A stretch of 51,874 nucleotides of DNA from a phage, in the sequence record PZ386979.1. The stretch is one strand, 5' to 3'. Position 1 is the first letter of the stretch. Every line of letters starts with the position of its first letter. Shown piece after piece: positions 1-50,667 of this stretch. Under the pieces are notes generated by a model that was not told where the DNA came from, did not search any database, and saw only the letters and a program-made list of their open reading frames with translations. The position numbers were made by a program, and so were the translations under genes.

Positions 1-1569
1 ATGCTGATGTGGGAAGACTTAACAGCGGCGCAGAAACGCGCCGTTAAGGAAATGAGCGAATATTCATTCGAAAAGATGATCCGCATTTGGTTTCAATTAT
101 TGCAAGGTCAGAAATTCTTAGGAAACTGGCATTTCAGTTACCTATGCAGCGAAGTTGAAAAAATCATCAAAGGCGAGTCACAGAATGTAATTTTCAACAT
201 AACGCCAGGCAGTGGTAAAACAGAGATATTCTCGATCCACATGTCACCTTATGCGTCATTGAAAAGTAAGAAGGTGAGAAATCTTAATTTGTCGTTTAGT
301 GATGGCCTTGTCCAGCAGAATAGCAACCGCATCAAAGAGATTATTGGTTCTCCAGAATGGCAGGAGCTATGGCCTGGAAAGTTGGCAAAGGCGAGCGCAA
401 AGGATTTGATTGTAACTGATGGCGGCAAGGTTAAATTACAAGTCAACTCGCGTTCTATTGGTGGTCAGGTTACTGGTCTGCGTGGCGGATACATGGACGA
501 TGGTTTTACTGGTATGCTGGTTCTTGATGATCCAGACAAGCCGGATGACATGCTTTCTAAGGTGAAGCGCGAAGCCGGACACATGCGCCTAAAGAACACG
601 GTGCGATCGCGTCGAATGAAGGACACCACGCCAATTGTGATGGTTCAGCAACGTCTACACGTCAATGATTCAACATGGTTCATGACAAACGGCGGCATGG
701 GCGGCATCCAGTTTAAGGTTGTTAGCATTCCGGCGCTCGTTACTAAGGAATATCGCGAAACTCTTCCTGATTGGTTAAAGCATGAGTTTGATCGCGATGT
801 TTTGTCCAGTAAGCCAGTGATGATTGATGGCGTTGCTCATTATTCATTCTGGCCTGCTAAGGAAAGCGCGGAGGAATTGCTTGCGCTTCGCAATGCCGAT
901 CCGTACACGTTCGCTAGTCAGTATCAGCAACAGCCTGTTGCGCTTGGCGGTAACGTGTTTAAAACAGAGTGGTTTCAGTATTACGGCAGCAGCGAGAAAT
1001 GCACGCTACCAAAACCGGATCGCTTTGAATATACATTTATCACGGTTGATACCGCACAGAAAACAGGGGAGCTTAACGACTACTCCGTGATCTGTTATTG
1101 GGGGATGTATAAAGATCGCGTTTACTTCATTGATGGTGTTCGCGGAAAATGGGAAGCACCAGACCTTGAGACTAATTTTGTTGCGTTCGTTAATCAGTGC
1201 TGGAAGCGCAATAAAGAATGCGGAACGTTGCGAAGGATTCATGTTGAAGATAAGTCATCTGGTACTGGCTTGATTCAGAGTGCAGCGAAAAAAATCATGA
1301 TCAAGATCAATCCAGTTCAGCGTGATAAAGACAAGGTTACTCGTGCAATGGACGCAGCACCAGTAATGCGCGCCGGACGCGTGGCACTTCCAGAATCGCA
1401 TCCTATGCTGGCTGAAATACTTGCGGAGGTTGCGGCTTTTGCTTATGATGATTCAGCGCCACACGATGATATTGTGGATACTATAATTGATGCTGTAAAC
1501 ATTGAGCTTAACCTTGCTGATGATGCCGTTGGTCGAATGAAGCGTCTCGCTGGATTGAGGAGTAAATAA
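1..1569 (+). CDS. terL: terminase large subunit
   Basis: 522-aa ORF starting at nt 1; P-loop-like segment NITPGSGKTE in N-terminal half, acidic nuclease-like C-terminal half; directly upstream of portal gene; terS-like ORF at window end ends with TAA only if joined to nt 1 (TAATG overlap). Confidence 0.75.
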   Translation: MLMWEDLTAAQKRAVKEMSEYSFEKMIRIWFQLLQGQKFLGNWHFSYLCSEVEKIIKGESQNVIFNITPGSGKTEIFSIHMSPYASLKSKKVRNLNLSFSDGLVQQNSNRIKEIIGSPEWQELWPGKLAKASAKDLIVTDGGKVKLQVNSRSIGGQVTGLRGGYMDDGFTGMLVLDDPDKPDDMLSKVKREAGHMRLKNTVRSRRMKDTTPIVMVQQRLHVNDSTWFMTNGGMGGIQFKVVSIPALVTKEYRETLPDWLKHEFDRDVLSSKPVMIDGVAHYSFWPAKESAEELLALRNADPYTFASQYQQQPVALGGNVFKTEWFQYYGSSEKCTLPKPDRFEYTFITVDTAQKTGELNDYSVICYWGMYKDRVYFIDGVRGKWEAPDLETNFVAFVNQCWKRNKECGTLRRIHVEDKSSGTGLIQSAAKKIMIKINPVQRDKDKVTRAMDAAPVMRAGRVALPESHPMLAEILAEVAAFAYDDSAPHDDIVDTIIDAVNIELNLADDAVGRMKRLAGLRSK

Positions 1570-2076
1570 ATGAGAAACGCGATCTATGATATAGCCAAAG
1601 ATTACCTTTACTACGATGGCGAGTTCGTCAGATGGAAGGTTCACATTAAGAAAAGCCGATTCCATCCTGGAGATATTGCTGGAACAGTGGACGGAGACGG
1701 ATATATCAGGATCGCGTTGTTCAGACAGTCGGTGTTAGCGCATCGGTTTGCTTGGGAATGGGACAATGGCCCAATACCGGAAGGAATGCAAATTGACCAC
1801 ATAGACCACGTAAGAACAAACAACAAGAGAGACAATTTAAGGATTGTAACGCATGAGCAGAACGGGCAAAACACGAAAAAATCAATCAGAAATACCAGCG
1901 GATGTGTTGGGGTTTATTGGTATGCGTCGCGAGAAAAATGGTGGTCGTTTATAGGTAACGTAGCAAAAGGAACTCGCAAATCACTTGGCTATTATTCTGA
2001 CTGGTTTGATGCCGTTTGCGCCAGAAAGCGAGCGGAGTTTGAACTTGGTTATCACGAAAACCACGGCAAGAAATAG
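1570..2076 (+). CDS. HNH homing endonuclease
   Basis: 168 aa; HNH motif DHIDHVRTNNKRDNLRIVTHEQN; GAGGAG RBS; start abuts terL stop; paralog of 35974..36447 (shared LAHRxxWE, IDHI, LGYHENHGK). Confidence 0.85.
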   Translation: MRNAIYDIAKDYLYYDGEFVRWKVHIKKSRFHPGDIAGTVDGDGYIRIALFRQSVLAHRFAWEWDNGPIPEGMQIDHIDHVRTNNKRDNLRIVTHEQNGQNTKKSIRNTSGCVGVYWYASREKWWSFIGNVAKGTRKSLGYYSDWFDAVCARKRAEFELGYHENHGKK

Positions 2077-2092
2077 CACGAATTGCTAAAAG
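2073..2092 (+). promoter_or_regulatory. conserved intergenic element, variant ATAGCACGAATTGCTAAAAG
   Basis: Contains HNH stop TAG; same variant recurs at 47922; followed by TATAAT (2097..2102) and terminator. Confidence 0.5.
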
Positions 2093-2105
2093 AAAGTATA
2101 ATCAA

Positions 2106-2130
2106 AGGCTGGCAAATCCAGCCTTTTTTA
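2106..2130 (+). terminator. rho-independent terminator
   Basis: AGGCTGG-caaat-CCAGCCT followed by TTTTTTATT. Confidence 0.6.
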
Positions 2131-2144
2131 TTGGAGGAAAGATA

Positions 2145-3425
2145 ATGAGTAAATCACGAATCGTTAAGGCTGACGGCTATAACGAGATCTTTAAAGGCGA
2201 GAATTGCAAATCGCGAGTAGAGCAACCATTCTACATGCAATCAATGCCATATAAGACACTTGCTGACTTTTACGAAAAAGACGGACTGGCAAAAAGGATT
2301 ATTGACGTGATACCAGAAGAAATGGTCTCCCCTGGCTTCACTGTTGACGGAGTGGCAGACGAGGCGGCATTCCGTTCTTTGTGGGATGAGAAGCGATTGA
2401 ATGCAAAAATTATTGATGCGCTTTGCTGGTCGCGTTTGTTTGGTGGATCTGCAATCATTGCTCTTGTTCAGGATGGGCGAGCGCTCAAATCACCTGTAAA
2501 GCCTGGTGCCATGTTGGAGGATGTGCGAGTTTACGATCGCTATCAGATTCGCGTTGAAGCGCGCGAAACTAATCCCCGCAAGGTTCGCTATGGTGAGCCA
2601 GTGCTTTACACTGTAACGCCAGGAGAAGACTTGCCGGAATACCAGGTACACTACACGCGCGTTTGCATTATCGACGGTGAGCGGATACCTAACGCAAAGC
2701 GACGCAGCAATGACGGCTGGGGTGAGTCAGTTCTTAACAAGCGGCTTGTTGAGGCTATTGTTGATTATAACTATTGTGAAACATTAGCTACGCAATTATT
2801 GCGAAGAAAACAACAGGCAGTATGGAAGGCCAAAGGTCTTGCTGACTTGTGCGATGATGAGGAGGGTGTTAGCGCGGCACGCTTGAGACTTGCGCAGGTT
2901 GACGACGAGGGCGGCGTTGGCAAGGCCATTGGTATTGATGCTGAGGATGAGGAATATGATGTTCTTAACTCTGACATTAGCGGCGTTGATTCTTTTCTGG
3001 AAAAGAAAATGGATCGCATCGTTTCCCTTTCAGGTATTCATGAAATCATCCTGAAAAATAAAAACGTTGGCGGAGTTAGCGCAAGCCAAAACACGGCGCT
3101 TGAAACATTCTATAAACTTATTGAGCGAAAACGCGTCGAGGATTACAAGCCTATCCTTGAATTTCTATTGCCGTTCATCATTAGTGAGCAGGAATGGAGC
3201 ATTGAGTTTTCACCTTTGAGCGTACCTAGCGATAAAGATCAGGCTGAAATTCTGAATAAGAATATCGACTCAATCAGCAAGGCTATTGATGGTCAGTTCC
3301 TTGATGTTGAAGAAGCGCGCGACACGTTGCGAGCAATCGCACCAAGCGTTAAACTAAAGGACACCAATAAAATCAAGCTGCCGGAGCCAACTGAGCCGGA
3401 GCCAGGCACACAGGGGAATGAGTAA
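2145..3425 (+). CDS. portal protein (putative)
   Basis: 426-aa ORF with GGAGGA RBS immediately after terminase and terminator; size and position typical of siphovirus portal. Confidence 0.6.
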   Translation: MSKSRIVKADGYNEIFKGENCKSRVEQPFYMQSMPYKTLADFYEKDGLAKRIIDVIPEEMVSPGFTVDGVADEAAFRSLWDEKRLNAKIIDALCWSRLFGGSAIIALVQDGRALKSPVKPGAMLEDVRVYDRYQIRVEARETNPRKVRYGEPVLYTVTPGEDLPEYQVHYTRVCIIDGERIPNAKRRSNDGWGESVLNKRLVEAIVDYNYCETLATQLLRRKQQAVWKAKGLADLCDDEEGVSAARLRLAQVDDEGGVGKAIGIDAEDEEYDVLNSDISGVDSFLEKKMDRIVSLSGIHEIILKNKNVGGVSASQNTALETFYKLIERKRVEDYKPILEFLLPFIISEQEWSIEFSPLSVPSDKDQAEILNKNIDSISKAIDGQFLDVEEARDTLRAIAPSVKLKDTNKIKLPEPTEPEPGTQGNE

Positions 3426-6315: not shown

Positions 6316-6347
6316 AATTATGTTGCACGTTTAACAAAAAATGCTAT
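6316..6347 (-). promoter_or_regulatory. conserved element in inverse orientation in capsid gene leader
   Basis: Plus strand reads GTTTAACAAAAAATGCTAT (6329..6347), 7 nt after -10-like AATTAT; upstream of 6394 gene. Confidence 0.4.
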
Positions 6348-6393: not shown

Positions 6394-7368
6394 ATGGAAA
6401 AAGAAAAATTTGATCAGCTAGATGCGGATATTGTTTCTAGCCATCTGGCTACTCGCGGCGTTAAGGGTGATGCTTCTGATATGGGTATCTGGACGGCGCA
6501 AGAGCTTCACAAGATCCGCTCAACTGCTTACGAGAAAGAGTATCCGGCAGGTTCAGCGCTTCGTGTGTTCCCTGTAACTAATGAGCTTTCTGATACTGAT
6601 AAGACTTTTGAATATCAGATGTTTGACAAGGTTGGTTACGCAAAAATTATCGCTGATTACACCGACGATCTGCCAACTGTTGACGCTTTAATGTCAAGCG
6701 AGTTTGGCAAGGTGTTCCGCCTGGGTAACGCGTTCTTGATCTCCATTGACGAAATCAAGGCTGGTCAGCGCACTGGTAAGAGCCTTTCCACTCGCAAGGC
6801 AAACGCAGCGCAAAACGCTCATGATCAGGAAGTTAACCGCCTGGTGTTTAAGGGTTCAAAGCCGCATAAGATTATTTCGGTGTTTGAACACCCTAACCTG
6901 ACAAAGATCGTGTCAACTGGATGGTTGAGCAACGATGAGAACACCAAGTTCCCCGAGACGGCTTCGGACGATCTTGAAAAGGCGATCGAAACCATCGAGA
7001 AGATCACGAATGGTCAGCACCGCGCAACCAATATCCTGATCCCGCCGTCAATGCGCAAGGTTCTTTCCGTTCGAATGGAAAACACCACTGAAAGTTATCT
7101 GGAATACTTCCAGAAACAAAACAGCGGAATCACCATCGACTCAATCGCAGAGCTTGAGGATATTGATGGCACTGGAACGAAAGGTTGCCTGGTATATGAG
7201 AAAGACCCGATGAACATGTCGATCGAAATTCCAGAAGCATTTAACATGCTTCCTGCGCAACCAAAAGATCTGCATTTCAAAGTTCCGTGTACTTCAAAAT
7301 GTACTGGCCTGACGATTTACCGTCCGTTTACGCTAGTTCTTATTACTGGCTTGAAAAAATCAGGTTAA
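6394..7368 (+). CDS. major capsid protein (putative)
   Basis: 324 aa; strong RBS GGAGGAAGAAA; followed by strong rho-independent terminator at 7381..7411; position in head module. Confidence 0.55.
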   Translation: MEKEKFDQLDADIVSSHLATRGVKGDASDMGIWTAQELHKIRSTAYEKEYPAGSALRVFPVTNELSDTDKTFEYQMFDKVGYAKIIADYTDDLPTVDALMSSEFGKVFRLGNAFLISIDEIKAGQRTGKSLSTRKANAAQNAHDQEVNRLVFKGSKPHKIISVFEHPNLTKIVSTGWLSNDENTKFPETASDDLEKAIETIEKITNGQHRATNILIPPSMRKVLSVRMENTTESYLEYFQKQNSGITIDSIAELEDIDGTGTKGCLVYEKDPMNMSIEIPEAFNMLPAQPKDLHFKVPCTSKCTGLTIYRPFTLVLITGLKKSG

Positions 7369-10089: not shown

Positions 10090-10108
10090 TTTTAACAAAA
10101 AGTGCTAT
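10090..10108 (-). promoter_or_regulatory. conserved element in inverse orientation in tail chaperone leader
   Basis: Plus strand TTTTAACAAAAAGTGCTAT directly upstream of RBS of 10122 gene; 6 nt after CATAAT (10078..10083). Confidence 0.4.
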
Positions 10109-10121
10109 CAAGGAGAAAGAA

Positions 10122-10439
10122 ATGTCAAAAATGAAATTGACGATTGGGCCGCTTCCTGACTTTAAATTACCAGTGAAATTTGCAATGCCTAACGGAGAAG
10201 ATCAAACAATTATCTTCACAGTTCGCCACCGCAAAACAAGTGAGATTCACGAGCGCTACACGTCAGATACTCCAATGAGCGATGTTGAAATGATCACCTT
10301 CCTTGCTTCAGGTTGGAATCTTGATGATGAATTTAACGAAGAAAATATTAAACAGCTTCTTGATTACTACCCAGCAACAGCAATCGGATTAACTAGCGCA
10401 TACATGAAAGCGCTTGCGGGGCAGCGAGTAAAAAACTAA
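10122..10439 (+). CDS. tail assembly chaperone (lambda G-like)
   Basis: 105 aa; AGGAG RBS; ends ...QRVKN with slippery heptamer A_AAA_AAC immediately before TAA; directly upstream of tape measure gene. Confidence 0.7.
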   Translation: MSKMKLTIGPLPDFKLPVKFAMPNGEDQTIIFTVRHRKTSEIHERYTSDTPMSDVEMITFLASGWNLDDEFNEENIKQLLDYYPATAIGLTSAYMKALAGQRVKN

Positions 10440-29272: not shown

Positions 29273-29316
29273 ATAGCATTTTTTGTTAAACGATGATTTA
29301 ATGATTGTGTATTATA
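29273..29316 (+). promoter_or_regulatory. conserved element plus -10 (helicase promoter)
   Basis: ATAGCATTTTTTGTTAAAC, 19-nt spacer, ATTATA/TATTAT; sits between divergent HTH-regulator and helicase genes. Confidence 0.5.
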
Positions 29317-29348
29317 CACGCCAAATGGCATTACTCAAAGGTTTTAGA

Positions 29349-33423: not shown

Positions 33424-34554
33424 ATGAAGCAAATCAAAATCACAGATGAACAATTTATCAATGAGCGCAAGCAGGGAAAGACATATAAGCAGATCGCTAG
33501 TGAGTATGGCATGAACGTTCGCAGCATTGAGCGACGCGCGGCACGATTAGCAAAGCAAGGTAAAGTTACAACCATCGGATCACCTGGTTTTGGTGTTACT
33601 GGAGAATCAAAGCTAATTGATAAAGATGGCAATGTGGTTATGACATGGATTAAGACAAGCAAAGACCGCGAACAGTTAGAAGCATTAATGCAGGCCGCTA
33701 TGGATGCATTTAGCGAAGAAGTTCCTCGACTTGATCCACAGCCAGAATCACAAAAGGATTATAGCGAGACGCTATCACTGTATCCGATCTTTGACATGCA
33801 CTTGGGCGCAATGGCGCATAAGCATGAATGCGGCGAGAATTGGGATACAGCAACAGCAGAGCGCGTAATGAATAATTTCATTGATTATTCCATCCAGTGC
33901 GCACCTGATAGTGAGAATGCTGTTTTGCTGATTGGCGGTGATATGCTTCACAGTGACGGACTGGAAGCGGTAACACCTGCAAGCGGTCACGTATTGGATC
34001 AAGATAGTCGATACGCAAAACTTGTTTATGTTGCCATCCGGTCAGTGCGTCGAGCAATTACAAAGCTGTTATCAAAACACAAAAACGTCGAGATTCAGAT
34101 CATTGAAGGCAACCACGACCAAAGCGGCATGATCTGGTTGCGCGCAGCAATGGCGGCAGCATATGAGAATGAGCCACGAGTGCATGTTGATGTGTCTCCG
34201 CGAGTAGTTCATCACACACAATATGGCAAAACGTTCCTGGCATACCATCACGGGCATACTATCCGCAAACCTGAAACATTGCTAATGATGTGCGCGGCAG
34301 ACTGGCGCGAAGACTTCGGAAATTCAAAAATGATGTATGCTCACGTAGGGCACTGGCATCATCAAACAGTAACTGAAACAAGCCTGGGCATTGTTGAAGT
34401 GCATAGCACTATGGCGGCAAAAGATGCATATGCTGCGCGCGGTGGATGGCGTTCTCGTCGCCGTGCGGCTGTTATTGTTTATGATAAAGAATACGGAGAA
34501 GTAGGGCGATTTATGCATTATCCAGAAATGGCCGATCGAACTTTTAATTATTAA
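33424..34554 (+). CDS. metallophosphoesterase (calcineurin-like) with N-terminal HTH domain
   Basis: Phosphoesterase motifs DMH, GGDMLH, GNHD, HHGH, GHWH; N-terminal GKTYKQIASEYGMNVRSIERR helix-turn-helix; AAGGAG RBS; terminator follows. Confidence 0.65.
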   Translation: MKQIKITDEQFINERKQGKTYKQIASEYGMNVRSIERRAARLAKQGKVTTIGSPGFGVTGESKLIDKDGNVVMTWIKTSKDREQLEALMQAAMDAFSEEVPRLDPQPESQKDYSETLSLYPIFDMHLGAMAHKHECGENWDTATAERVMNNFIDYSIQCAPDSENAVLLIGGDMLHSDGLEAVTPASGHVLDQDSRYAKLVYVAIRSVRRAITKLLSKHKNVEIQIIEGNHDQSGMIWLRAAMAAAYENEPRVHVDVSPRVVHHTQYGKTFLAYHHGHTIRKPETLLMMCAADWREDFGNSKMMYAHVGHWHHQTVTETSLGIVEVHSTMAAKDAYAARGGWRSRRRAAVIVYDKEYGEVGRFMHYPEMADRTFNY

Positions 34555-34582
34555 AATATCAATATAAATCATCAATTTAATT

Positions 34583-34613
34583 GGGCGTGGCATTTTGCTT
34601 CGCCCTTTTTTTA
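34583..34613 (+). terminator. terminator upstream of lysis cassette
   Basis: GGGCG-(13-nt loop)-CGCCC followed by TTTTTTTT. Confidence 0.55.
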
Positions 34614-34685
34614 TTCCTTTTTGTGCGTTCAATGGTTAGGATACAATCAATTAATTGTTGACTTTTATCTACAGGAGATCTAATC

Positions 34686-34901
34686 ATGAAAGATTTTTTA
34701 AACGCTGCAACTTCCGGCACTTGCGGCGCGTCAATCACTGGCGCGGTAACTGGTCAAACAACTATTGCAATAGCCAGCTTCGTTTTGATGGCTGCATTTG
34801 GTATGTGGGGAGCTTATCTTCGCTGGCGTGATAGTAAGGCGCTACGTGACGCGCTTGAATGCGGTGATATTAAGAAAGCTATTGAGACCAGAGGTAAATA
34901 A
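34686..34901 (+). CDS. holin (small, single TMD; pinholin-like)
   Basis: 71 aa; one hydrophobic helix ([21 protein letters not shown]) then charged C-terminus; AGGAG RBS; directly upstream of endolysin (TAATG overlap). Confidence 0.6.
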
Positions 34902-36828: not shown

Positions 36829-38412
36829 TTACCCCAGCAATGTTGGATTTACAAAAACAACGCCATTAATCACACAAATATAATTTCTTTCTTCAAGCAT
36901 CGGCAGCAGTTGCGTTTCCATGCGCTTCATTACGCCAGCCTGACCAACAAAAGGCTTAACTTTTCGCGCAGCCTCATATATGGCTCGCACATTCAAAATT
37001 CCCTTGTTAGCCTTACCGTGTCGAGTGATAATCTCGATTAGTTTACCCATTTCAGCATCATCACCAGCATAGCCAGAAGCGTTGGCGGCGCTAATGTATG
37101 TTTTGCTCAACTCGCTAAACATCAGTAGTGCTTCCTGAACGGTTTCAACCTCAATCTCTTTCGACTTTTGAGGGTATCCGCCAGGATTAAACCAATTGCG
37201 GATAGTGTGCAAAACCGAAGCAATTCTGATCACCTGCTTATCCATTTTGCCAAGCGCGCCGCGCAGCATTGTATGAGAATACTTTCCGCCATCGGCAAGG
37301 TGCGGTTCCATCTCCTGACGAGCCATGTTAAGCACTCGCATTGCTGATTTGCTGATCTTAAGCTGGATGTTTGATTCGCTCATTATGTTATGGATCAGCT
37401 TAAAATATTGGCTTTTCAGTTCTCCATCAACAGGCTCATAAGTCGAATCACCGTTATCATCAACAAACTTTCGACGACCTAAAAATGATTCCTCACGCAC
37501 AAGCAAATAACGCTCACTTACACCGATACCGCGTGATCCTGCGTCCATGATGGCATTGATTGTTTCATCCTGGGCAATTACCGCCATGCAGCCAAGAGCT
37601 TTAAAACTCATATTGTTGTCAGCGTTTGCACGAGCTATAGAAACATGACCATGATCCCATGCTTTTAGCACAAGTTCGCTGTTTGTTTTGCGTTCGCTAT
37701 TGGCATATGTCAGGCCTAAAAGGCTGTTAATACTCGTTGCCTCGTCTGAAATTACAGCAAAGTTACCCTGGCGATTGTTGATTCTTGCAAGTCCTTCAGG
37801 CGTGGTGTCTGAAACAGGGAAAACAATGTCACACATCTTTTCCAGCTTTTCTTCAAGATCTTCTTTCTCCTGGTATAGCGATTCCATATCAGCGCCAGAT
37901 CGCTCGCTTTTCATCTCTTTTGCAAGACCTGCCAACTTTGCCTGAATCTTTTTCCGTTCCTTCTTTCGCTGATCATTAATTCTTTCCACTTCAGCAACCA
38001 TAGGAGCAAGAGCCAGGCTGTTAACGGCAGATTTACCAGTTGAAGGAGGCTGACTTGTGACAACATAAAGGGCGGTTGGCTGATCCGTTCCGTGATACTC
38101 AACCGTGAAGCGTCCAAGCATTGCAGCAGACACGCAGCCGATAAAATGCATATAGGCCGATGATTCAGGGAATTGAACAGAGCGAGCAATGTTTCGCGCC
38201 AACTTACCAACAACATCAACATCATTGCCAAGAGAAATTACAGGGTAGCGATCGTTTCCGTTATTAACATCATTAACCTCACCCCAAAAGCTGGACGATT
38301 GACGGTATCCGTTAGCCTGAATGGACACGCGCACCGGAGACAATCCTTGTGCATCAGCTAATTCGATAATTTGTTTTGGTGTTAGTTTATTTGTTTCAAA
38401 CGAAAAATTCAT
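36829..38412 (-). CDS. P-loop ATPase, putative replication protein (DUF3987-like)
   Basis: Start at ATG 38412 behind AAGGAG RBS; Walker A-like QPPSTGKSA and Walker B-like VISDEATS; adjacent to replication genes. Confidence 0.5.
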   Translation of the reverse strand: MNFSFETNKLTPKQIIELADAQGLSPVRVSIQANGYRQSSSFWGEVNDVNNGNDRYPVISLGNDVDVVGKLARNIARSVQFPESSAYMHFIGCVSAAMLGRFTVEYHGTDQPTALYVVTSQPPSTGKSAVNSLALAPMVAEVERINDQRKKERKKIQAKLAGLAKEMKSERSGADMESLYQEKEDLEEKLEKMCDIVFPVSDTTPEGLARINNRQGNFAVISDEATSINSLLGLTYANSERKTNSELVLKAWDHGHVSIARANADNNMSFKALGCMAVIAQDETINAIMDAGSRGIGVSERYLLVREESFLGRRKFVDDNGDSTYEPVDGELKSQYFKLIHNIMSESNIQLKISKSAMRVLNMARQEMEPHLADGGKYSHTMLRGALGKMDKQVIRIASVLHTIRNWFNPGGYPQKSKEIEVETVQEALLMFSELSKTYISAANASGYAGDDAEMGKLIEIITRHGKANKGILNVRAIYEAARKVKPFVGQAGVMKRMETQLLPMLEERNYICVINGVVFVNPTLLG

Positions 38413-41137: not shown

Positions 41138-41168
41138 CTTTAAATCCTCGCTTGTTGTCGATGCGTGT

Positions 41169-41212
41169 AATATACCAATCAGAGGCGCATCGGTTTTAAC
41201 AAAAAGTGCTAT
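41169..41212 (-). promoter_or_regulatory. conserved element plus -10
   Basis: Minus-sense ATAGCACTTTTTGTTAAAAC abutting TAA stop; 18-nt spacer; TATATT. Confidence 0.5.
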
Positions 41213-41479
41213 TTAGTCCATGAATTCGATTTCGCGCTCGCCAGTTAACGGATCTACAAGCCAGAATCCGAGCGGCTCACCGTAAACACCGCCATAGAAT
41301 CCAAGCGCCGACAGATCTTCACCTTTAACAAATACCAGATCACCGCTACGGCTTACGTGAGACACGTTAACGATAACCGGAAATGTGCGGTTTTTAAATG
41401 CAGGCCGCAGGGCGTAACACCCGTTATTTAGCAAACGTGCTTTGCGCTTAACTGGAATAGGTGCATTGATTCGCGCCAT
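41213..41479 (-). CDS. hypothetical protein
   Basis: 88 aa; stop TAA abuts conserved element. Confidence 0.45.
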   Translation of the reverse strand: MARINAPIPVKRKARLLNNGCYALRPAFKNRTFPVIVNVSHVSRSGDLVFVKGEDLSALGFYGGVYGEPLGFWLVDPLTGEREIEFMD

Positions 41480-41492
41480 ATTTATTTCTCCT

Positions 41493-41738
41493 TCATTGTT
41501 TATCGCGTTTAACGGCCCTCAGAACATCACAGGACTCGTTAATAAATTTTGCCATGCGCTTATCATCACCAACAGGGATTAGCGCATTACACTCGCGTTT
41601 TCTACTGAAAACCGTTACTTTATGAAACGATGCGAACGGCATCGACGGAAACTCGACTGTTTGCGTCAAGATCCGCAATCCCATCTTTTTGGCCCTTACC
41701 TGGGCCTCAGCGAGTTCAAAATCCACTTCATTAATCAT
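41493..41738 (-). CDS. hypothetical protein
   Basis: 81 aa; leftward early operon. Confidence 0.45.
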   Translation of the reverse strand: MINEVDFELAEAQVRAKKMGLRILTQTVEFPSMPFASFHKVTVFSRKRECNALIPVGDDKRMAKFINESCDVLRAVKRDKQ

Positions 41739-42007
41739 TTCTTGATCTCCTCAGCAATAAACTTCAGGACTTTGCGCAAAAACACTTCATTATTGATGGT
41801 CGCTGGCAATTCCTCTTTCACTTCTTGCGGCAGGTAAACGTTGCCATGCCAGGTTAAGCAATCGTAGTTGATACGATAAGAGCAAAGCCACTCGCAATCG
41901 TTATCCGCTTCCCAAATGCAGAGTTGCAGAACATCACCTAAATCCTCAACAGTCAGATCCAGACCGTGACGCTTTGCAAAGTTGAAAGTGGTTTTGCTGA
42001 TGTTCAT
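41735..42007 (-). CDS. hypothetical protein (first leftward early gene)
   Basis: 90 aa; CAGGAG RBS; downstream of conserved element and -10 (42042..42085). Confidence 0.5.
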   Translation of the reverse strand: MNISKTTFNFAKRHGLDLTVEDLGDVLQLCIWEADNDCEWLCSYRINYDCLTWHGNVYLPQEVKEELPATINNEVFLRKVLKFIAEEIKK

Positions 42008-42041
42008 TGCTATCTCCTGAGCGGTTCGTTTCGATGTGTGT

Positions 42042-42085
42042 AATGTACCCGATCAGGCGGATTCAGTTTTAACAAAAAGTGCTAT
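42042..42085 (-). promoter_or_regulatory. conserved element plus -10 (leftward early promoter)
   Basis: Minus-sense ATAGCACTTTTTGTTAAAAC; 18-nt spacer; TACATT; CAGGAG RBS; first gene of leftward early block. Confidence 0.5.
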
Positions 42086-42381
42086 TTGCTGACTGGTCAT
42101 TATTCCTTCTATTCCATTAATCAGGAATAACAGGAATAATTCATTCGCGATCACCTGGATTGTGAGACTTTGAGTTTGATCAATTTTAATCAGTTGATTA
42201 ACTTTTTGTGTGGAGGGGATGGAGAAACGCGGCCCTCTTGCATCCTTTCCGGCAATCCTGGCGCGCGCATCTGTTATTTCTGTTCCCCATGTTATCTCAA
42301 ATAAGCCTCCGCACTTTTAGATAACAGAATCGGCGTTCATCAACAAAAAGAACAAAATAAAATTTATATATATACCAATAA

Positions 42382-42396
42382 AATCAATAAGTTAGT
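42382..42396 (+). repeat. AATCAATAAGTTAGT 15-mer (copy 2)
   Basis: Identical to 21041..21055. Confidence 0.6.
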
Positions 42397-42626
42397 TATA
42401 TATGTATTTATATTTGTTATTTACTGTTGAGCTTGTTCCATGGGTATATGGTGGGTGTTGATGATTCCTTCATTTAACATTTGTACTTTTTATGCGGTTA
42501 TATATATAGATTTTGCGGCATTATCGAGACAACCAGTGAACGAGATTGAACGAGCTTTAAAATCAATCACTTGCGCGCAATTTTGTTATCGCGTCAAAAA
42601 AAGATGTTATTAGAACGAAAAATCAG

Positions 42627-42655
42627 TTGACTACCTGGCTGTGAGTATTGATAAT
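42627..42655 (+). promoter_or_regulatory. sigma70-like early promoter (TTGACT-17-GATAAT) for rightward early operon
   Basis: -35 TTGACT 42627..42632, -10 GATAAT 42650..42655; upstream TTAGAACGAAAAA block shared with promoter at 21298. Confidence 0.6.
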
Positions 42656-42687
42656 GCACGCAGACAAAACGAAAAGGGAGACAGCAC

Positions 42688-42987
42688 ATGACAAAAATGC
42701 TTGCAATAAACCGAAAACTTGAAGTGAAAGAGATGTCACAAGATGATATTGATGATTTGGCGCGCGGCATGACAACAGGTTACATGCGGAGAATTGTCAA
42801 TCACTTGATTAACTCTGAACGAAATAAGGCCGTATACATCAGCATAAATCACGCTGGAGGGAATGCTGCATCAATGCGACAGATGATTAACAACGTGGCA
42901 AAAGAGTTAAATGTTGATGTTAAGACGTTTGTTGTTGATGGATTCCTGGGCCTGGTAATACTTGAAGTTAACGAAGCGTTTGCATAA
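42688..42987 (+). CDS. hypothetical protein (first rightward early gene)
   Basis: 99 aa; AAGGGAG RBS; 30 nt after sigma70-like promoter TTGACT-17-GATAAT. Confidence 0.5.
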   Translation: MTKMLAINRKLEVKEMSQDDIDDLARGMTTGYMRRIVNHLINSERNKAVYISINHAGGNAASMRQMINNVAKELNVDVKTFVVDGFLGLVILEVNEAFA

Positions 42988-50291: not shown

Positions 50292-50521
50292 TGTTTGGAA
50301 TGAACGAGGCACAATTCAACGCTGCAAAACGCCAGGCTAAGAAGTGCGGAGAGGCAATGAAGGCGGATGTTGAAAAGCGCGGAAAGTATGTTGATGAAGT
50401 TATGAAGGGCATTATTGCCGAACATTATCAGCCAGTTTCGCCAATGCTGACAATTACCCAATTCATCTGGTTGTGTGGTTATCTTCGTGGGCGATGGGGA
50501 AACGCATTTGACCGCGAATGA
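50291..50521 (+). CDS. hypothetical protein
   Basis: 76 aa. Confidence 0.4.
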   Translation: MFGMNEAQFNAAKRQAKKCGEAMKADVEKRGKYVDEVMKGIIAEHYQPVSPMLTITQFIWLCGYLRGRWGNAFDRE

Positions 50522-50667
50522 TTGACAACGATTTACTGATTGGTTAACATCTTCGGTGTTTACATAAGAGCGGCGTTAGTGCCGAACGGGTGGCGCGGTT
50601 GCCACGCAACAACGGCGATATGCAGGTTTTTACCGTAATACGTATCGCCTTTTTTATAGGTGAATAT

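What the first reader, a model, noticed from the sequence alone, without database searches (positions are those of the whole stretch)
42008..42687. Second AT-rich 680-bp divergent control region, paralogous to the one at 21 kb
Separates the leftward and rightward early gene blocks. Shares the 15-mer AATCAATAAGTTAGT and ATATA-rich context with the 21-kb region, and its rightward promoter (TTGACT-17-GATAAT) shares upstream TTAGAAC-GAAAAA and downstream ATGCA(C)GCAGAC with the promoter at 21298. Also holds GGAATAA/TTATTCC inverted and direct repeats (42100..42139) and inverted repeat GTTATCT...AGATAAC (42291..42325). The two regions look like duplicated regulatory modules.
Basis: seen in the sequence. 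Interest (0 to 1): 0.6.

Follow-up and report, generated by a model that had tools for sequence, protein, structure and literature searches.

The report
Duplicated early-promoter/unwinding module in T1-like phage
The 680-bp gap really does contain a second, diverged copy of the ~410-bp non-coding module at 21 kb; the pair occurs in every T1-like phage tested, sits upstream of two of the three host-type promoters, holds the two most easily melted DNA stretches of the genome, and is a candidate early-transcription switch and/or the family's unknown replication origin.

Summary
The window is a complete Hanrivervirus genome (Drexlerviridae, T1-like).

**Observation: confirmed and understated.** 20931-21348 and 42272-42678 are collinear homologues, about 62% identical (local score 82; shuffles reach at most 31.5; z = 17-40). 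A paralogous pair was found in all 11 Drexlerviridae genomes tested, including T1, TLS, Rtp and KP36 (z = 7.8-29).

**The 680-bp region has three parts.**
- 42008-42090: a leftward promoter of the published 21-nt "ATAGCAC" repeat class.
- 42090-42270: a segment absent from the 21-kb copy. It carries the GGAATAA hairpin repeat and aligns with the position where the T1 and TLS genome records start (the pac region).
- 42272-42687: the duplicated module.

**The module contains** a near-consensus sigma-70 promoter, an A-rich upstream tract, an IHF-consensus site about 100 bp upstream, short lineage-specific boxes, and a (TA)n core. In each of five reference genomes, the two cores are the two least stable 100-bp windows.

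**Best reading (0.5):** a duplicated control module for the immediate-early promoters.

**Main rival (0.3):** transcription-coupled replication origins.

I found no description of the pair in the papers I could read.

The parts
42008..42066 (-). 5' leader and ribosome-binding site of the leftward 90-aa gene, with a -10-like TACATT at 42047-42042
   Evidence: The -10-like hexamer lies 23 nt downstream of the 21-nt repeat, the same 22-23 nt spacing as in 14 of the 15 copies in the genome (the antisense copy at 6333 is the exception). The whole leader is 79% identical to the one at 41149-41214.
42067..42087 (-). One copy of the dispersed Drexlerviridae 21-nt repeat (aaATAGCACTTTTTGTTAAAA, read on the minus strand); candidate non-sigma-70-type promoter element for the leftward genes
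   Evidence: 16 matches in the window against 3.3 expected, 15 of them used as repeat copies; orientation follows the gene direction in 13 of the 15 copies. Published as a repeat of unknown function in TLS, T1 and Rtp (PMC11447400). The paralogous copy at 21 kb is 20909-20929.
42095..42145 (.). GGAATAA/TTATTCC inverted plus tandem repeat (arms 42099-42115 and 42124-42140); probable protein-binding palindrome. Not present at 21 kb
   Evidence: repeats I3 and D6. DNA hairpin -9.3 kcal/mol, z = -5.9. Conserved in T1 (CATTATTCC..GGAATAT.GGAATAAT). Replaced by AGACCGATTGGTCT twice in TLS.
42146..42271 (.). Segment specific to the 42-kb region, orthologous to the genome-end (pac) region of T1 and TLS. 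Position 1 of both records aligns to about 42165-42175 (TGTGAGACTTTGAG...)
   Evidence: a gap of about 190 bp relative to the 21-kb copy; both records start here, and T1 annotates repeat_region 1..2800; alignment of the record starts. The TLS pac site was mapped by restriction digests (PMC11447400). SU57 read-depth step (PMC7718038). An inference by homology only.
42272..42335 (.). Left boxes of the duplicated module: GAACAGAAATA (42275-42285, minus strand) and the TGTTATC inverted repeat (42290-42301 / 42315-42326)
   Evidence: TGTTATC occurs 6 times in the two modules out of 16 in the genome (expected 0.25).
42336..42436 (.). AT-rich (TA)n core: second least stable 100-bp window of the genome. 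Contains the box AACAAAAAGAACAA (42342-42355), an IHF consensus AATCAATAAGTTA (42382-42394) and flanking TATATA runs
   Evidence: dG -105.4, z = 4.7; the 21-kb core is first with z = 4.9, the third window has z = 3.4..
42437..42560 (.). T/G-rich spacer, third (TA)n run (42497-42511) and tandem TGAACGAG(A/C)T boxes (42537-42556, 10-bp period)
   Evidence: D3, D5. Aligned with GGAACAAGGGAACAAAAA at 21187-21207, which is at least 90% conserved across 26 Tempevirinae sequences.
42561..42573 (+). Second IHF-consensus site (AATCAATCACTTG), 66 bp upstream of the -35 hexamer
   Evidence: An IHF-like box with at most one mismatch lies 66 or 76-80 bp upstream of the -35 in most Tempevirinae and upstream of T1 recE. 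The ATCA..ACTTA columns are at least 90% conserved.
42581..42626 (+). TTTTGTTATC box (42581-42590) and A-rich UP-like tract TTAGAACGAAAAATCAG (42610-42626)
   Evidence: The homologous TAGAACAGAAAAAACAAAA at 21 kb is at least 90% conserved.
42627..42655 (+). Sigma-70-type promoter TTGACT-17-GATAAT; orthologue of TLS promoter P01
   Evidence: TLS Supplementary Table S1 lists only three intergenic sigma-70 promoters: P01, P51 and P57.
42656..42687 (+). 5' leader (GCACGCAGAC...) and ribosome-binding site of the first rightward gene
20931..21348 (+). The paralogous module upstream of recE. Box AACAAAAAGAACAA (20930-20943, minus strand); core 21008-21108; IHF sites 21041-21053 and 21222-21234; GGAACAA boxes 21187-21207; promoter 21298-21325 (orthologue of TLS P51)

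Best explanation
The region is a composite of three units.

1. **42008-42090.** The promoter and leader of the leftward operon, of the phage-specific 21-nt "ATAGCAC" repeat class.

2. **42090-42270.** A segment absent from the 21-kb copy. By homology it lies where headful packaging starts in T1 and TLS. It carries a palindromic GGAATAA element.

3. **42272-42687.** One of two copies of an ancient ~410-bp cis-acting module that serves the two major host-RNA-polymerase promoters of the phage. One promoter drives the DUF7174 / small-gene operon here; the other drives recE-erf-ssb at 21 kb.

Proposed mechanism for unit 3:
- Straight after injection, unmodified E. coli sigma-70 RNA polymerase fires from the near-consensus -35/-10. 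It is helped by the A-rich tract at -40 to -60.
- IHF bound about 100 bp upstream bends the DNA. This brings the far-upstream boxes and the easily melted (TA)n core back towards the promoter.
- Those short, lineage-specific boxes are the same in both copies of a genome. They give one phage-encoded DNA-binding protein a handle to regulate both immediate-early operons together. The only DNA-binding regulator identified here is the Cro/YdaS-like HTH protein made from the third sigma-70 promoter, so it is a candidate and nothing more.

**Shown here:** the homology, the anatomy, its conservation, motif enrichment and duplex instability.

**Inferred:** IHF binding, the identity of the box-binding protein, and the direction of regulation.
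For: - **Real paralogy.** z = 17-40 in the window. Significant in all 11 genomes tested, spanning Hanrivervirus, Tlsvirus, Tunavirus, Rtpvirus, Webervirus and unclassified IMG/VR genomes.
- **Tied to the host-type promoters.** The modules end in two of the only three intergenic sigma-70 promoters listed for TLS. In the window they are two of the three intergenic sites scoring at least 10 of 12 (the third, at 50522, was not followed up).
- **The promoter position is conserved.** 41 of 45 IMG/VR recE loci have TTGAC(T/A/G)-16-TAnnnT at -56 to -63 from the ATG.
- **The module travels with recE.** In KP36 the recE operon is inverted, and the module has moved with it in the same relative orientation.
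- **IHF sites are enriched.** There are 11 exact consensus sites in 52 kb against 4.4 expected. Five of them lie in the two intergenic regions (1.2 kb), four of those within the duplicated modules. A box with at most one mismatch is held 66 or 76-80 bp upstream of the -35 across diverged relatives and is conserved in the alignment columns.
- **The upstream A-tract and the GGAACAA boxes are conserved.** Both are at least 90% conserved across 26 Tempevirinae sequences.
- **The boxes share a core with the dispersed repeat.** The 9-mer AACAAAAAG occurs 12 times: 9 in repeat copies, 2 in the modules and 1 elsewhere. This hints at one regulator for both promoter classes.
- **Lineage-specific words are concentrated in both modules.** TGTTATC 6 of 16 (window); TGTAACA 6 of 6 (T1); GTGAACA 4 of 8 (TLS).
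Against: - A near-consensus promoter hardly needs 300 bp of upstream help. The third sigma-70 promoter (TLS P57 and its orthologue at 29338-29311) has no such module.
- The feature conserved best across genera is physical, not sequence. In each of the five reference genomes the two cores are the two least stable 100-bp windows. In 44 of 45 recE loci the least stable window sits 322-395 bp upstream of recE. That is more typical of a DNA-unwinding element at an origin than of a promoter enhancer.
- The exact IHF consensus is not universal. It is absent from the TLS core, Rtp and the T1 end copy.
- No binding protein is identified and there are no transcript data.
Confidence: 0.5

Rival explanations
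1. The two modules are the phage's replication origins, or an origin plus a cis enhancer like P4 ori/crr. In this reading the (TA)n core is a DNA-unwinding element. The lineage-specific boxes on either side of the core (inverted in Rtp, KP36 and the 21-kb copy here) bind a phage initiator. That initiator could be the winged-helix C-terminus of the MCM-like DUF3987 helicase, or the HTH protein encoded next to the primase gene. Negative supercoiling behind the outward-firing promoters, together with IHF bending, opens the core so that the helicase and primase can load.
For: - The cores are the two least stable 100-bp windows in each of the five reference genomes, by a clear margin: z = 4.3-5.9, against at most 3.8 for the third window.
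- ATATATA heptamers are largely confined to the cores: 10 of 11 in T1 and 7 of 11 in the window.
- In most genera the core lies between divergent promoters.
- Lineage-specific boxes lie on either side of the core: inverted in KP36 (ATCTTAC / GTAAGAT) and in the 21-kb copy here (GAACAA-type), palindromic in Rtp (TCCGCGGAAA), and TGTAACA/TGTTACA in T1 with the inverted pairs to one side of the core or at the promoter.
- The core sequence differs completely between genera but is near-identical within a genome. About 52 bp are 100% identical in KP36, and about 80 bp are roughly 90% identical in Rtp.
- The phage encodes a primase and an MCM-like AAA+ helicase with a C-terminal winged helix.
- The TLS authors looked for an origin and reported none, so the origin of this family is still unplaced.
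Against: - There are no DnaA boxes in the modules, even allowing one mismatch.
- There is no GATC cluster.
- There is no long iteron array, only two or three short boxes per side.
- No initiator gene lies next to either module.
- The helicase is conserved along its whole length between genera, with no obvious specificity domain. Its best structural matches are MCM proteins in general, not origin-binding domains.
- GC skew simply follows gene orientation and gives no information on replication.
- T1-like phages may instead rely on recombination-dependent replication through RecE, Erf and SSB.
Confidence: 0.3
2. The whole 680-bp region is the packaging (pac) recognition site, and the 21-kb copy is a secondary or relic pac site.
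For: The T1, TLS and Rtp records start inside the orthologous region. T1 annotates its terminal repeat from position 1. The TLS pac site was mapped here by restriction digests, and SU57 shows a read-depth step here. IHF sites are known components of the lambda cos and P1 pac sites (from memory).
Against: The positions aligned to the T1 and TLS record starts (about 42165-42175) fall in the segment that is not duplicated. The duplicated part begins about 100 bp further right. A second pac site 21 kb away would produce a second packaging series, which has not been reported. The GATC density near the predicted end is unremarkable.
Confidence: 0.07
3. The similarity reflects a gene product: a small non-coding RNA or a short protein encoded inside the modules.
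For: ORFs of 51 and 57 aa lie at equivalent places (21139-21294 and 42440-42613).
Against: The two ORFs are in different frames relative to the DNA alignment and share no peptide similarity. No ORF is annotated inside the duplicated part in Fulano1, KarlJaspers or BEK7. There is no Rfam hit. No RNA fold is better than shuffles on either strand (z from -0.7 to +1.9). No terminator lies inside the modules.
Confidence: 0.03
4. The resemblance is a chance or compositional match between two AT-rich spacers.
For: Both regions are AT-rich and low in complexity. Identity values between any two cores saturate near 0.8.
Against: z = 17 even against shuffles that keep local composition. The alignment is collinear over about 420 bp, and the reverse-complement control scores 28 against 82. 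The result was reproduced in ten further genomes.
Confidence: 0.01

Closest known systems
IHF-assisted phage early promoters (lambda pL with its IHF sites and distant UP element; Mu Pe) - recalled from memory
   Same: A strong sigma-70 promoter, an A-rich upstream tract, an IHF consensus about 90-110 bp upstream of the start site, and AT-rich DNA further upstream that the bend could bring back to the polymerase.
   Different: Here the conserved upstream part extends to about -380, contains the least stable DNA of the genome and lineage-specific boxes, and exists in two paralogous copies 21 kb apart. IHF binding has not been tested.
Supercoiling-induced duplex destabilisation activators (ilvPG and leuV upstream activating sequences with IHF or Fis) - recalled from memory
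   Same: An easily melted AT-rich upstream element with an IHF site inside it, upstream of a sigma-70 promoter.
   Different: In ilvPG the destabilised region lies within about 150 bp of the start site. Here the main unstable core is 230-330 bp upstream, and a second IHF site lies in between.
Origins built from initiator sites flanking an AT-rich unwinding element (SaPI ori, SV40/papillomavirus ori, P4 ori plus crr) - recalled from memory
   Same: An AT-rich core between short repeated boxes on both sides, inverted in Rtp, KP36 and the 21-kb copy here. The phage encodes a primase and a hexameric-type AAA+ helicase with a C-terminal winged helix. Two cis elements per genome, as with P4 ori and crr.
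   Different: No demonstrated initiator, and few boxes. The modules are attached to outward-firing promoters rather than lying next to or inside a rep gene. The helicase is MCM-like (DUF3987), not the P4 alpha type, and a sequence search of solved structures found no significant match.
Drexlerviridae 21-nt direct repeat aaATAGCACnnnTTGnTAAAA (PMC11447400)
   Same: The left edge of both regions carries one copy (42067-42087 and 20909-20929) in the orientation of the leftward gene. The module boxes share its AACAAAAAG core.
   Different: That repeat is dispersed (about 15 copies) and accounts only for the left-edge similarity, not for the 410-bp module.
Lactococcal phage c2 origin in the early/late divergent promoter region - recalled from memory
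   Same: A non-coding divergent control region where promoter and origin functions coincide.
   Different: There is no sequence relationship. c2 has one copy, and transcription through its origin is what primes replication.

Membership tests
Sigma-70 (host RNA polymerase) promoter | -35 TTGACA-like and -10 TATAAT-like hexamers 16-18 bp apart, upstream of a gene | tested here: met
   TTGACT-17-GATAAT at 42627-42655 and TTGACT-16-TACAAT at 21298-21325, both 10 of 12. Conserved at -56 to -63 in 41 of 45 recE loci. Orthologous to the TLS promoters P01 and P51.
Sigma-70 (host RNA polymerase) promoter | A mapped transcription start, or activity in vivo or in vitro | not testable with these tools
   No transcript data for any Drexlerviridae were found in the searchable literature.
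IHF-dependent promoter architecture | A match to WATCAANNNNTTR at a fixed position upstream of the promoter | tested here: met
   Exact matches at 42561 and 21222, 66 and 76 bp upstream of the -35, plus 42382 and 21041 in the cores. Genome-wide 11 matches against 4.4 expected. Positional conservation with at most one mismatch in most Tempevirinae and upstream of T1 recE, but not in Rtp or the T1 end copy.
IHF-dependent promoter architecture | IHF binding, and IHF dependence of transcription | not testable with these tools
   Needs footprinting and ihf mutant hosts.
Replication origin (unwinding element plus initiator sites) | An AT-rich region of minimal duplex stability | tested here: met
   The two least stable 100-bp windows of the genome in the window, T1, TLS, Rtp and KP36. 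The position is conserved in 44 of 45 recE loci.
Replication origin (unwinding element plus initiator sites) | Multiple repeated initiator-binding sites (iterons) next to the unwinding element | tested here: inconclusive
   Only two or three short boxes per side: TGAACGAG(A/C)T twice, GGAACAA twice, AACAAAAAGAACAA. Lineage-specific words are enriched in both modules. There is no long array and no known binder.
Replication origin (unwinding element plus initiator sites) | DnaA boxes (for a host-initiator-dependent origin) | tested here: not met
   No TTATNCACA, even with one mismatch, inside 20931-21348 or 42272-42678. The motif is not enriched genome-wide.
Replication origin (unwinding element plus initiator sites) | Initiation of replication mapped at the site, or autonomous replication | not testable with these tools
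   GC skew follows gene orientation only. No read-depth data are available.
pac (headful packaging initiation) site | Virion DNA ends, or a submolar pac fragment, mapping to the site | not testable with these tools
   By homology only. Position 1 of the T1 and TLS records aligns to about 42165-42175. The TLS pac site was mapped by restriction digests, and SU57 shows a read-depth step.
Drexlerviridae 21-nt direct repeat | A match to aaATAGCACnnnTTGnTAAAA, oriented with transcription, about 76 nt upstream of a start codon | tested here: met
   42067-42087 on the minus strand, 60-80 nt upstream of the ATG at 42007. 20909-20929 on the minus strand, upstream of cor.
Known non-coding RNA family | A covariance-model match at the gathering threshold | tested here: not met
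   No Rfam matches in the whole window. No excess RNA folding.

The most novel reading that the evidence does not exclude
The two modules are the long-sought replication origins of T1-like phages. In this reading they are transcription-activated unwinding elements flanked by short lineage-specific boxes (inverted in several lineages). On these boxes the phage's MCM-like, winged-helix-bearing helicase, or the HTH protein encoded next to the primase gene, would assemble. Gene conversion, or co-selection by the same initiator, would keep the two copies alike within each genome.
Probability: 0.3. Interest if true: 0.7.

Novelty: new member of a known kind. Interest (0 to 1): 0.5.

Why it matters
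T1 is one of the seven classic T phages, yet its transcription programme and its replication origin are still undefined. The 2024 TLS re-annotation found only three host-type promoters and no origin (PMC11447400).

This work shows that two of those three promoters carry the same ~410-bp upstream module in every Drexlerviridae genome tested. It also shows that the module cores are the two most easily melted sites of each of the five reference genomes profiled. That gives two precise targets of about 100 bp each.

Deleting, swapping or cloning these targets should show how early genes are switched on and off, and whether replication starts there. It also gives annotators a rule for these genomes:
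- the large "empty" gaps at cor/recE and at the genome ends are one duplicated element;
- the pac-proximal segment is a separate unit from that element.

Tried and rejected
- **Cruciform at the core.** The 26-nt inverted arms around the IHF site fold only weakly (z = -2.5 at 42 kb, -1.5 at 21 kb). The T1 and Rtp cores show no excess folding. Palindromy is therefore not a conserved property.
- **Non-coding RNA.** No Rfam hit and no RNA-fold signal on either strand.
- **Small ORFs inside the modules.** They lie in different frames and share no similarity.
- **GATC / Dam clustering at the core or at pac.** GATC is frequent everywhere (5.2 per kb). The local counts are unremarkable and the duplicated modules contain none.
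- **GC skew as an origin indicator.** It mirrors gene orientation only.
- **DnaA boxes.** None in the modules.
- **P4 alpha homology of the helicase.** This lead came from TLS GTGAACA resembling the P4 iteron TGTTCACC as I recall it. No sequence match to any solved structure was found. The predicted fold is MCM-like with a C-terminal winged helix. That is suggestive, but it is not evidence of origin binding.
- **A hypervariable specificity region in the helicase or the HTH protein.** Both are conserved along their whole length across the three genera compared.
- **Concerted evolution measured by core identity matrices.** Uninformative, because low complexity puts all pairs at 0.75-0.85. Only the long exact identities in KP36 and Rtp argue for it.
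- **Literature.** I found no transcript-start or origin data for any T1-like phage. The Rtp genome paper was not available and the T1 genome paper was not among the papers I read, so an earlier mention of the duplication there cannot be excluded.
Full report
**Context.** Megablast places the window in Hanrivervirus (Drexlerviridae, Tempevirinae). It is 96-97% identical to Escherichia phage vB_EcoD_Fulano1 across both regions. The window starts at the terminase large-subunit ATG and looks like a complete 51.9-kb genome.
- The 21-kb gap lies between cor (20626-20853, minus strand) and the recE-type exonuclease gene (21355, plus strand).
- The 42-kb gap lies between a leftward 90-aa gene (41735-42007) and a rightward 99-aa gene (42688-42987).
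- The 99-aa gene is followed by a DUF7174 gene. In T1, TLS, Rtp, KarlJaspers and BEK7 the DUF7174 homologue is the first annotated rightward gene.

**Observation.** The similarity is much more than those motifs.
- A local alignment runs collinearly from 20931-21348 to 42272-42678 at about 62% identity, with score 82.
- Dinucleotide shuffles give 13.3 +/- 1.7. Shuffles that keep composition in 30-bp blocks give 19.4 +/- 3.7 (maximum 31.5). The reverse complement gives 28.
- BLASTN self-comparison gives E = 8e-23.
- Relative to the 21-kb copy, the 42-kb region has an extra ~190 bp (42090-42270).

**The left edge is a known dispersed repeat.**
- The shared AAAAAGTGCTAT belongs to a motif with 16 matches in the window against 3.3 expected. 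In 13 of the 15 copies listed it is oriented with the downstream gene.
- In 14 of the 15 copies a -10-like hexamer follows 22-23 nt later.
- This is the 21-nt repeat aaATAGCACnnnTTGnTAAAA published for TLS and said there to occur in T1 and Rtp. Its function is listed there as an open question (PMC11447400).
- So 42008-42090 and 20854-20930 are repeat-type promoter/leader units for the leftward genes. They are not part of the specific duplication.

**The segment specific to the 42-kb region.**
- The GenBank records of T1, TLS and Rtp all start inside the orthologous divergent gap, and T1 annotates repeat_region 1..2800.
- The TLS paper describes restriction mapping of a submolar pac fragment to this place. 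The SU57 paper reports a read-depth step in the same untranslated region.
- In a three-way alignment, position 1 of T1 and of TLS falls at window ~42175 and ~42165. That is inside the non-duplicated segment and about 30 bp right of the GGAATAA palindrome.
- The palindrome is conserved in T1 and replaced by a different tandem palindrome in TLS. It is strongly hairpin-capable (z = -5.9).
- I read 42090-42270 as the pac-proximal unit. This is by homology only.

**The duplicated module is family-wide.** Paralogy between the recE-upstream gap and the genome-end gap is significant in every genome tested:

| Genome | z |
|---|---|
| T1 | 9 |
| TLS | 10.9 |
| Rtp | 29 |
| Six IMG/VR genomes | 7.8-21 |
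| KP36 | 24 |

- In KP36 the recE operon is inverted and the module has moved with it.
- Within Tempevirinae, orthologous copies are somewhat closer than paralogous ones (z about 13 against 9-11). The duplication is therefore old.
- KP36 keeps about 52 bp of its two cores 100% identical. Rtp keeps about 80 bp at roughly 90% identity. Between genera the cores are unrelated in sequence.
- This argues for gene conversion or for recognition of both copies by one lineage-specific factor. Identity matrices could not test the point further, because low complexity saturates them.

**Anatomy, read rightward.**
- Boxes GAACAGAAATA and the TGTTATC inverted repeat.
- AACAAAAAGAACAA.
- A (TA)n run, an exact IHF consensus, and a second (TA)n run.
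- A T/G-rich spacer.
- A third (TA)n run.
- Tandem GAAC-type boxes.
- A second exact IHF consensus.
- TTTTGTTATC.
- The A-rich tract TTAGAAC(A)GAAAAA.
- TTGACT-16/17-(T/G)A(C/T)AAT.
- The conserved leader.

**Conservation of that anatomy.** In an alignment of 26 distinct Tempevirinae recE-upstream sequences, several columns are at least 90% conserved while the stretches between them vary. These are the promoter, the A-tract, TTTTGTT, ATCA..ACTTA, GGAACAAGGGAACAAAAA and GTTCTTTTTGTT.
- Across 45 IMG/VR loci the promoter sits at -56 to -63 from the recE ATG in 41.
- In the window's closest relatives (L008-L012) and the TLS group, TATATA runs sit near -330, -296 and -193. The T1 group has them at -322 to -366.

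**Physical property.**
- Nearest-neighbour stacking energies make the two cores the two least stable 100-bp windows in the window (21008 and 42336), T1, TLS, Rtp and KP36. Their z values are 4.3-5.9, against at most 3.8 for the third window.
- In 44 of 45 recE loci the least stable window starts 322-395 bp upstream of recE.
- ATATATA heptamers are largely confined to the modules: 10 of 11 in T1 and 7 of 11 in the window.

**Motif statistics.**
- IHF consensus: 11 in the window against 4.4 expected. Five lie in the two intergenic regions, four of those within the duplicated modules.
- An IHF-like box with at most one mismatch lies 66 or 76-80 bp upstream of the -35 in most Tempevirinae and upstream of T1 recE. 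It is missing in Rtp and in the T1 end copy.
- Lineage-specific words are concentrated in both modules: TGTTATC 6 of 16 (window), TGTAACA 6 of 6 (T1), GTGAACA 4 of 8 (TLS).
- AACAAAAAG occurs 12 times: nine in 21-nt repeats, two in the module boxes and one elsewhere.

**Link to the promoter inventory.**
- TLS Supplementary Table S1 lists only three intergenic sigma-70 promoters: P01, P51 and P57.
- P01 and P51 are the orthologues of the promoters at 42627 and 21298.
- P57 drives the HTH "transcriptional regulator". Its orthologue here is on the minus strand, with -35 at 29338-29333 and -10 at 29316-29311 (read from the sequence).
- That 157-aa protein has a Cro/YdaS-type helix-turn-helix, just below the Pfam cut-offs.

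**Interpretation.** The promoter-proximal 130 bp fits a classical IHF-assisted early promoter. It combines a near-consensus promoter, an UP-like A-tract and an IHF-type site about 100 bp upstream.

The distal 250 bp is the puzzle. It holds the lineage-specific boxes and the most meltable DNA of the genome. Two readings fit.

1. **A shared operator/enhancer region.** A phage protein would co-regulate both immediate-early operons through it. In favour:
   - the 9-mer shared with the 21-nt repeat;
   - the module travelling with the recE promoter in KP36;
   - the tight promoter geometry.
2. **A transcription-coupled replication origin.** In favour:
   - the conserved instability;
   - the lineage-specific boxes on either side of the core, inverted in Rtp, KP36 and the 21-kb copy here;
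   - within-genome homogenisation of the cores;
   - the fact that the family has a primase and an MCM-like helicase with a C-terminal winged helix (model pLDDT 88.7, best matches MCM2-7) but no assigned origin.

The two readings are not exclusive. I give 0.5 to the early-promoter control module as the primary function and 0.3 to the origin. The remainder is spread over pac, a gene product and chance.

**Negative results.**
- No Rfam match and no RNA-fold signal.
- The ORFs inside the modules are not conserved.
- Cruciform potential is not conserved.
- No DnaA boxes in the modules and no GATC clustering.
- GC skew is uninformative.
- The helicase has no sequence match to any solved structure.
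- No specificity-domain signal in the helicase or the HTH protein.

**Novelty.** The 21-nt repeat, the three promoters and the pac location are published. I found no description of the paralogous 410-bp module pair, its family-wide conservation or its duplex instability in the papers I could read. The Rtp genome paper was not available and the T1 genome paper was not among the papers I read. All the components are of known kinds, so I rate this as a new member of a known kind. Interest is moderate because it makes the T1 origin and early-switch questions directly testable.

Noticed in passing
window 6333, 10094, 20913, 29273, 31797, 32838, 38469, 39145, 40543, 41198, 42071, 43723, 44941, 46605, 49263: In 14 of the 15 copies of the published 21-nt ATAGCAC repeat (all but the antisense copy at 6333), a -10-like hexamer (TATAAT, CATAAT, TATAGT, TATTAT...) follows exactly 22-23 nt after TTGTT. 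This puts the repeat at about -51 to -30 with no -35 hexamer, the geometry of a class-II activator site on a -10-only promoter. Several spacers hold a GC-rich hairpin. The TLS paper proposed stoperators, enhancers or UP elements and did not mention this fixed -10.
   Followed up: partly
window 6333-6347 and 10094-10108: Two copies of the 21-nt repeat in the late (structural) region point antisense to the surrounding genes. They lie in the gaps upstream of the 324-aa ORF at 6394 and the 105-aa ORF at 10122. This is contrary to the published statement that intergenic copies follow the direction of transcription.
   Followed up: no
window 29273-29338: The third host-type promoter (orthologue of TLS P57) reads on the minus strand as TTGAGT-16-TATAAT, with -35 at 29338-29333 and -10 at 29316-29311. 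It drives the HTH regulator gene. It overlaps face-to-face the repeat-type promoter of the 703-aa helicase gene. The near-palindrome GTGTATTATACAC supplies the -10 for both directions.
   Followed up: partly
window 36829-38412 (minus strand): The DUF3987 "DNA helicase" is 527 aa from the internal Met. It gives a confident AlphaFold model (pLDDT 88.7). The best PDB matches are MCM2-7 and archaeal MCM subunits, and the model ends in a winged-helix domain (residues ~451-521).
   Followed up: partly
window ~42455-42460: Most Hanrivervirus genomes match the window at 92-99% up to about 42455, just right of the (TA)n core. Beyond that they switch to a diverged allele of the right half of the module and to different first genes (KarlJaspers, BEK7). 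The core is therefore a mosaic or recombination junction.
   Followed up: partly
window 42053-42292 (minus strand); L001 1657-1893; L002 982-1197: Fulano1 and KarlJaspers annotate a 72-79-aa ORF with a TTG or GTG start across the pac-proximal segment, the palindrome and the 21-nt repeat. The frame is also open in the window but lacks the start codon (TGG). About half of the few substitutions among four phages fall at third codon positions. It is unclear whether this is a gene or an annotation artefact.
   Followed up: partly
window 34540-34700: This is a third AT-rich gap (AT 0.69). It holds a terminator-like hairpin, an exact IHF consensus (34645-34657) and TTGACT immediately upstream of the ORF starting at 34686 (transmembrane-like by eye; probably the holin, not checked).
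   Followed up: no
L063 (Klebsiella phage KP36) 34514-35008 and 49709-575: In KP36 the recE-erf-ssb operon is inverted relative to T1, TLS and the window, and the module has moved with it. The two KP36 cores share about 52 bp of perfect identity flanked by inverted ATCTTAC / GTAAGAT. KP36 gp01 (110-415) is annotated straight across the core and is probably spurious.
   Followed up: partly
window 42688-42987: A 99-aa gene with no Pfam match sits between the early promoter and the DUF7174 gene in this phage and in Fulano1. In T1, TLS, Rtp, KarlJaspers and BEK7 the DUF7174 homologue is the first annotated rightward gene. This looks like a small gene inserted at the head of the early operon.
   Followed up: no
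window 50522-50550: An intergenic TTGACA-17-TAACAT (10 of 12) lies between the ORFs ending at 50521 and starting at 50590, near the end of the small-gene block and upstream of the terminase region.
   Followed up: no
search hits MG065636, MG065669 and others: About 20 GenBank records named "Campylobacter phage" (host given as C. jejuni) are 92-95% identical to this coliphage across both regions. They are probably T1-like contaminants or mislabelled records.
   Followed up: no
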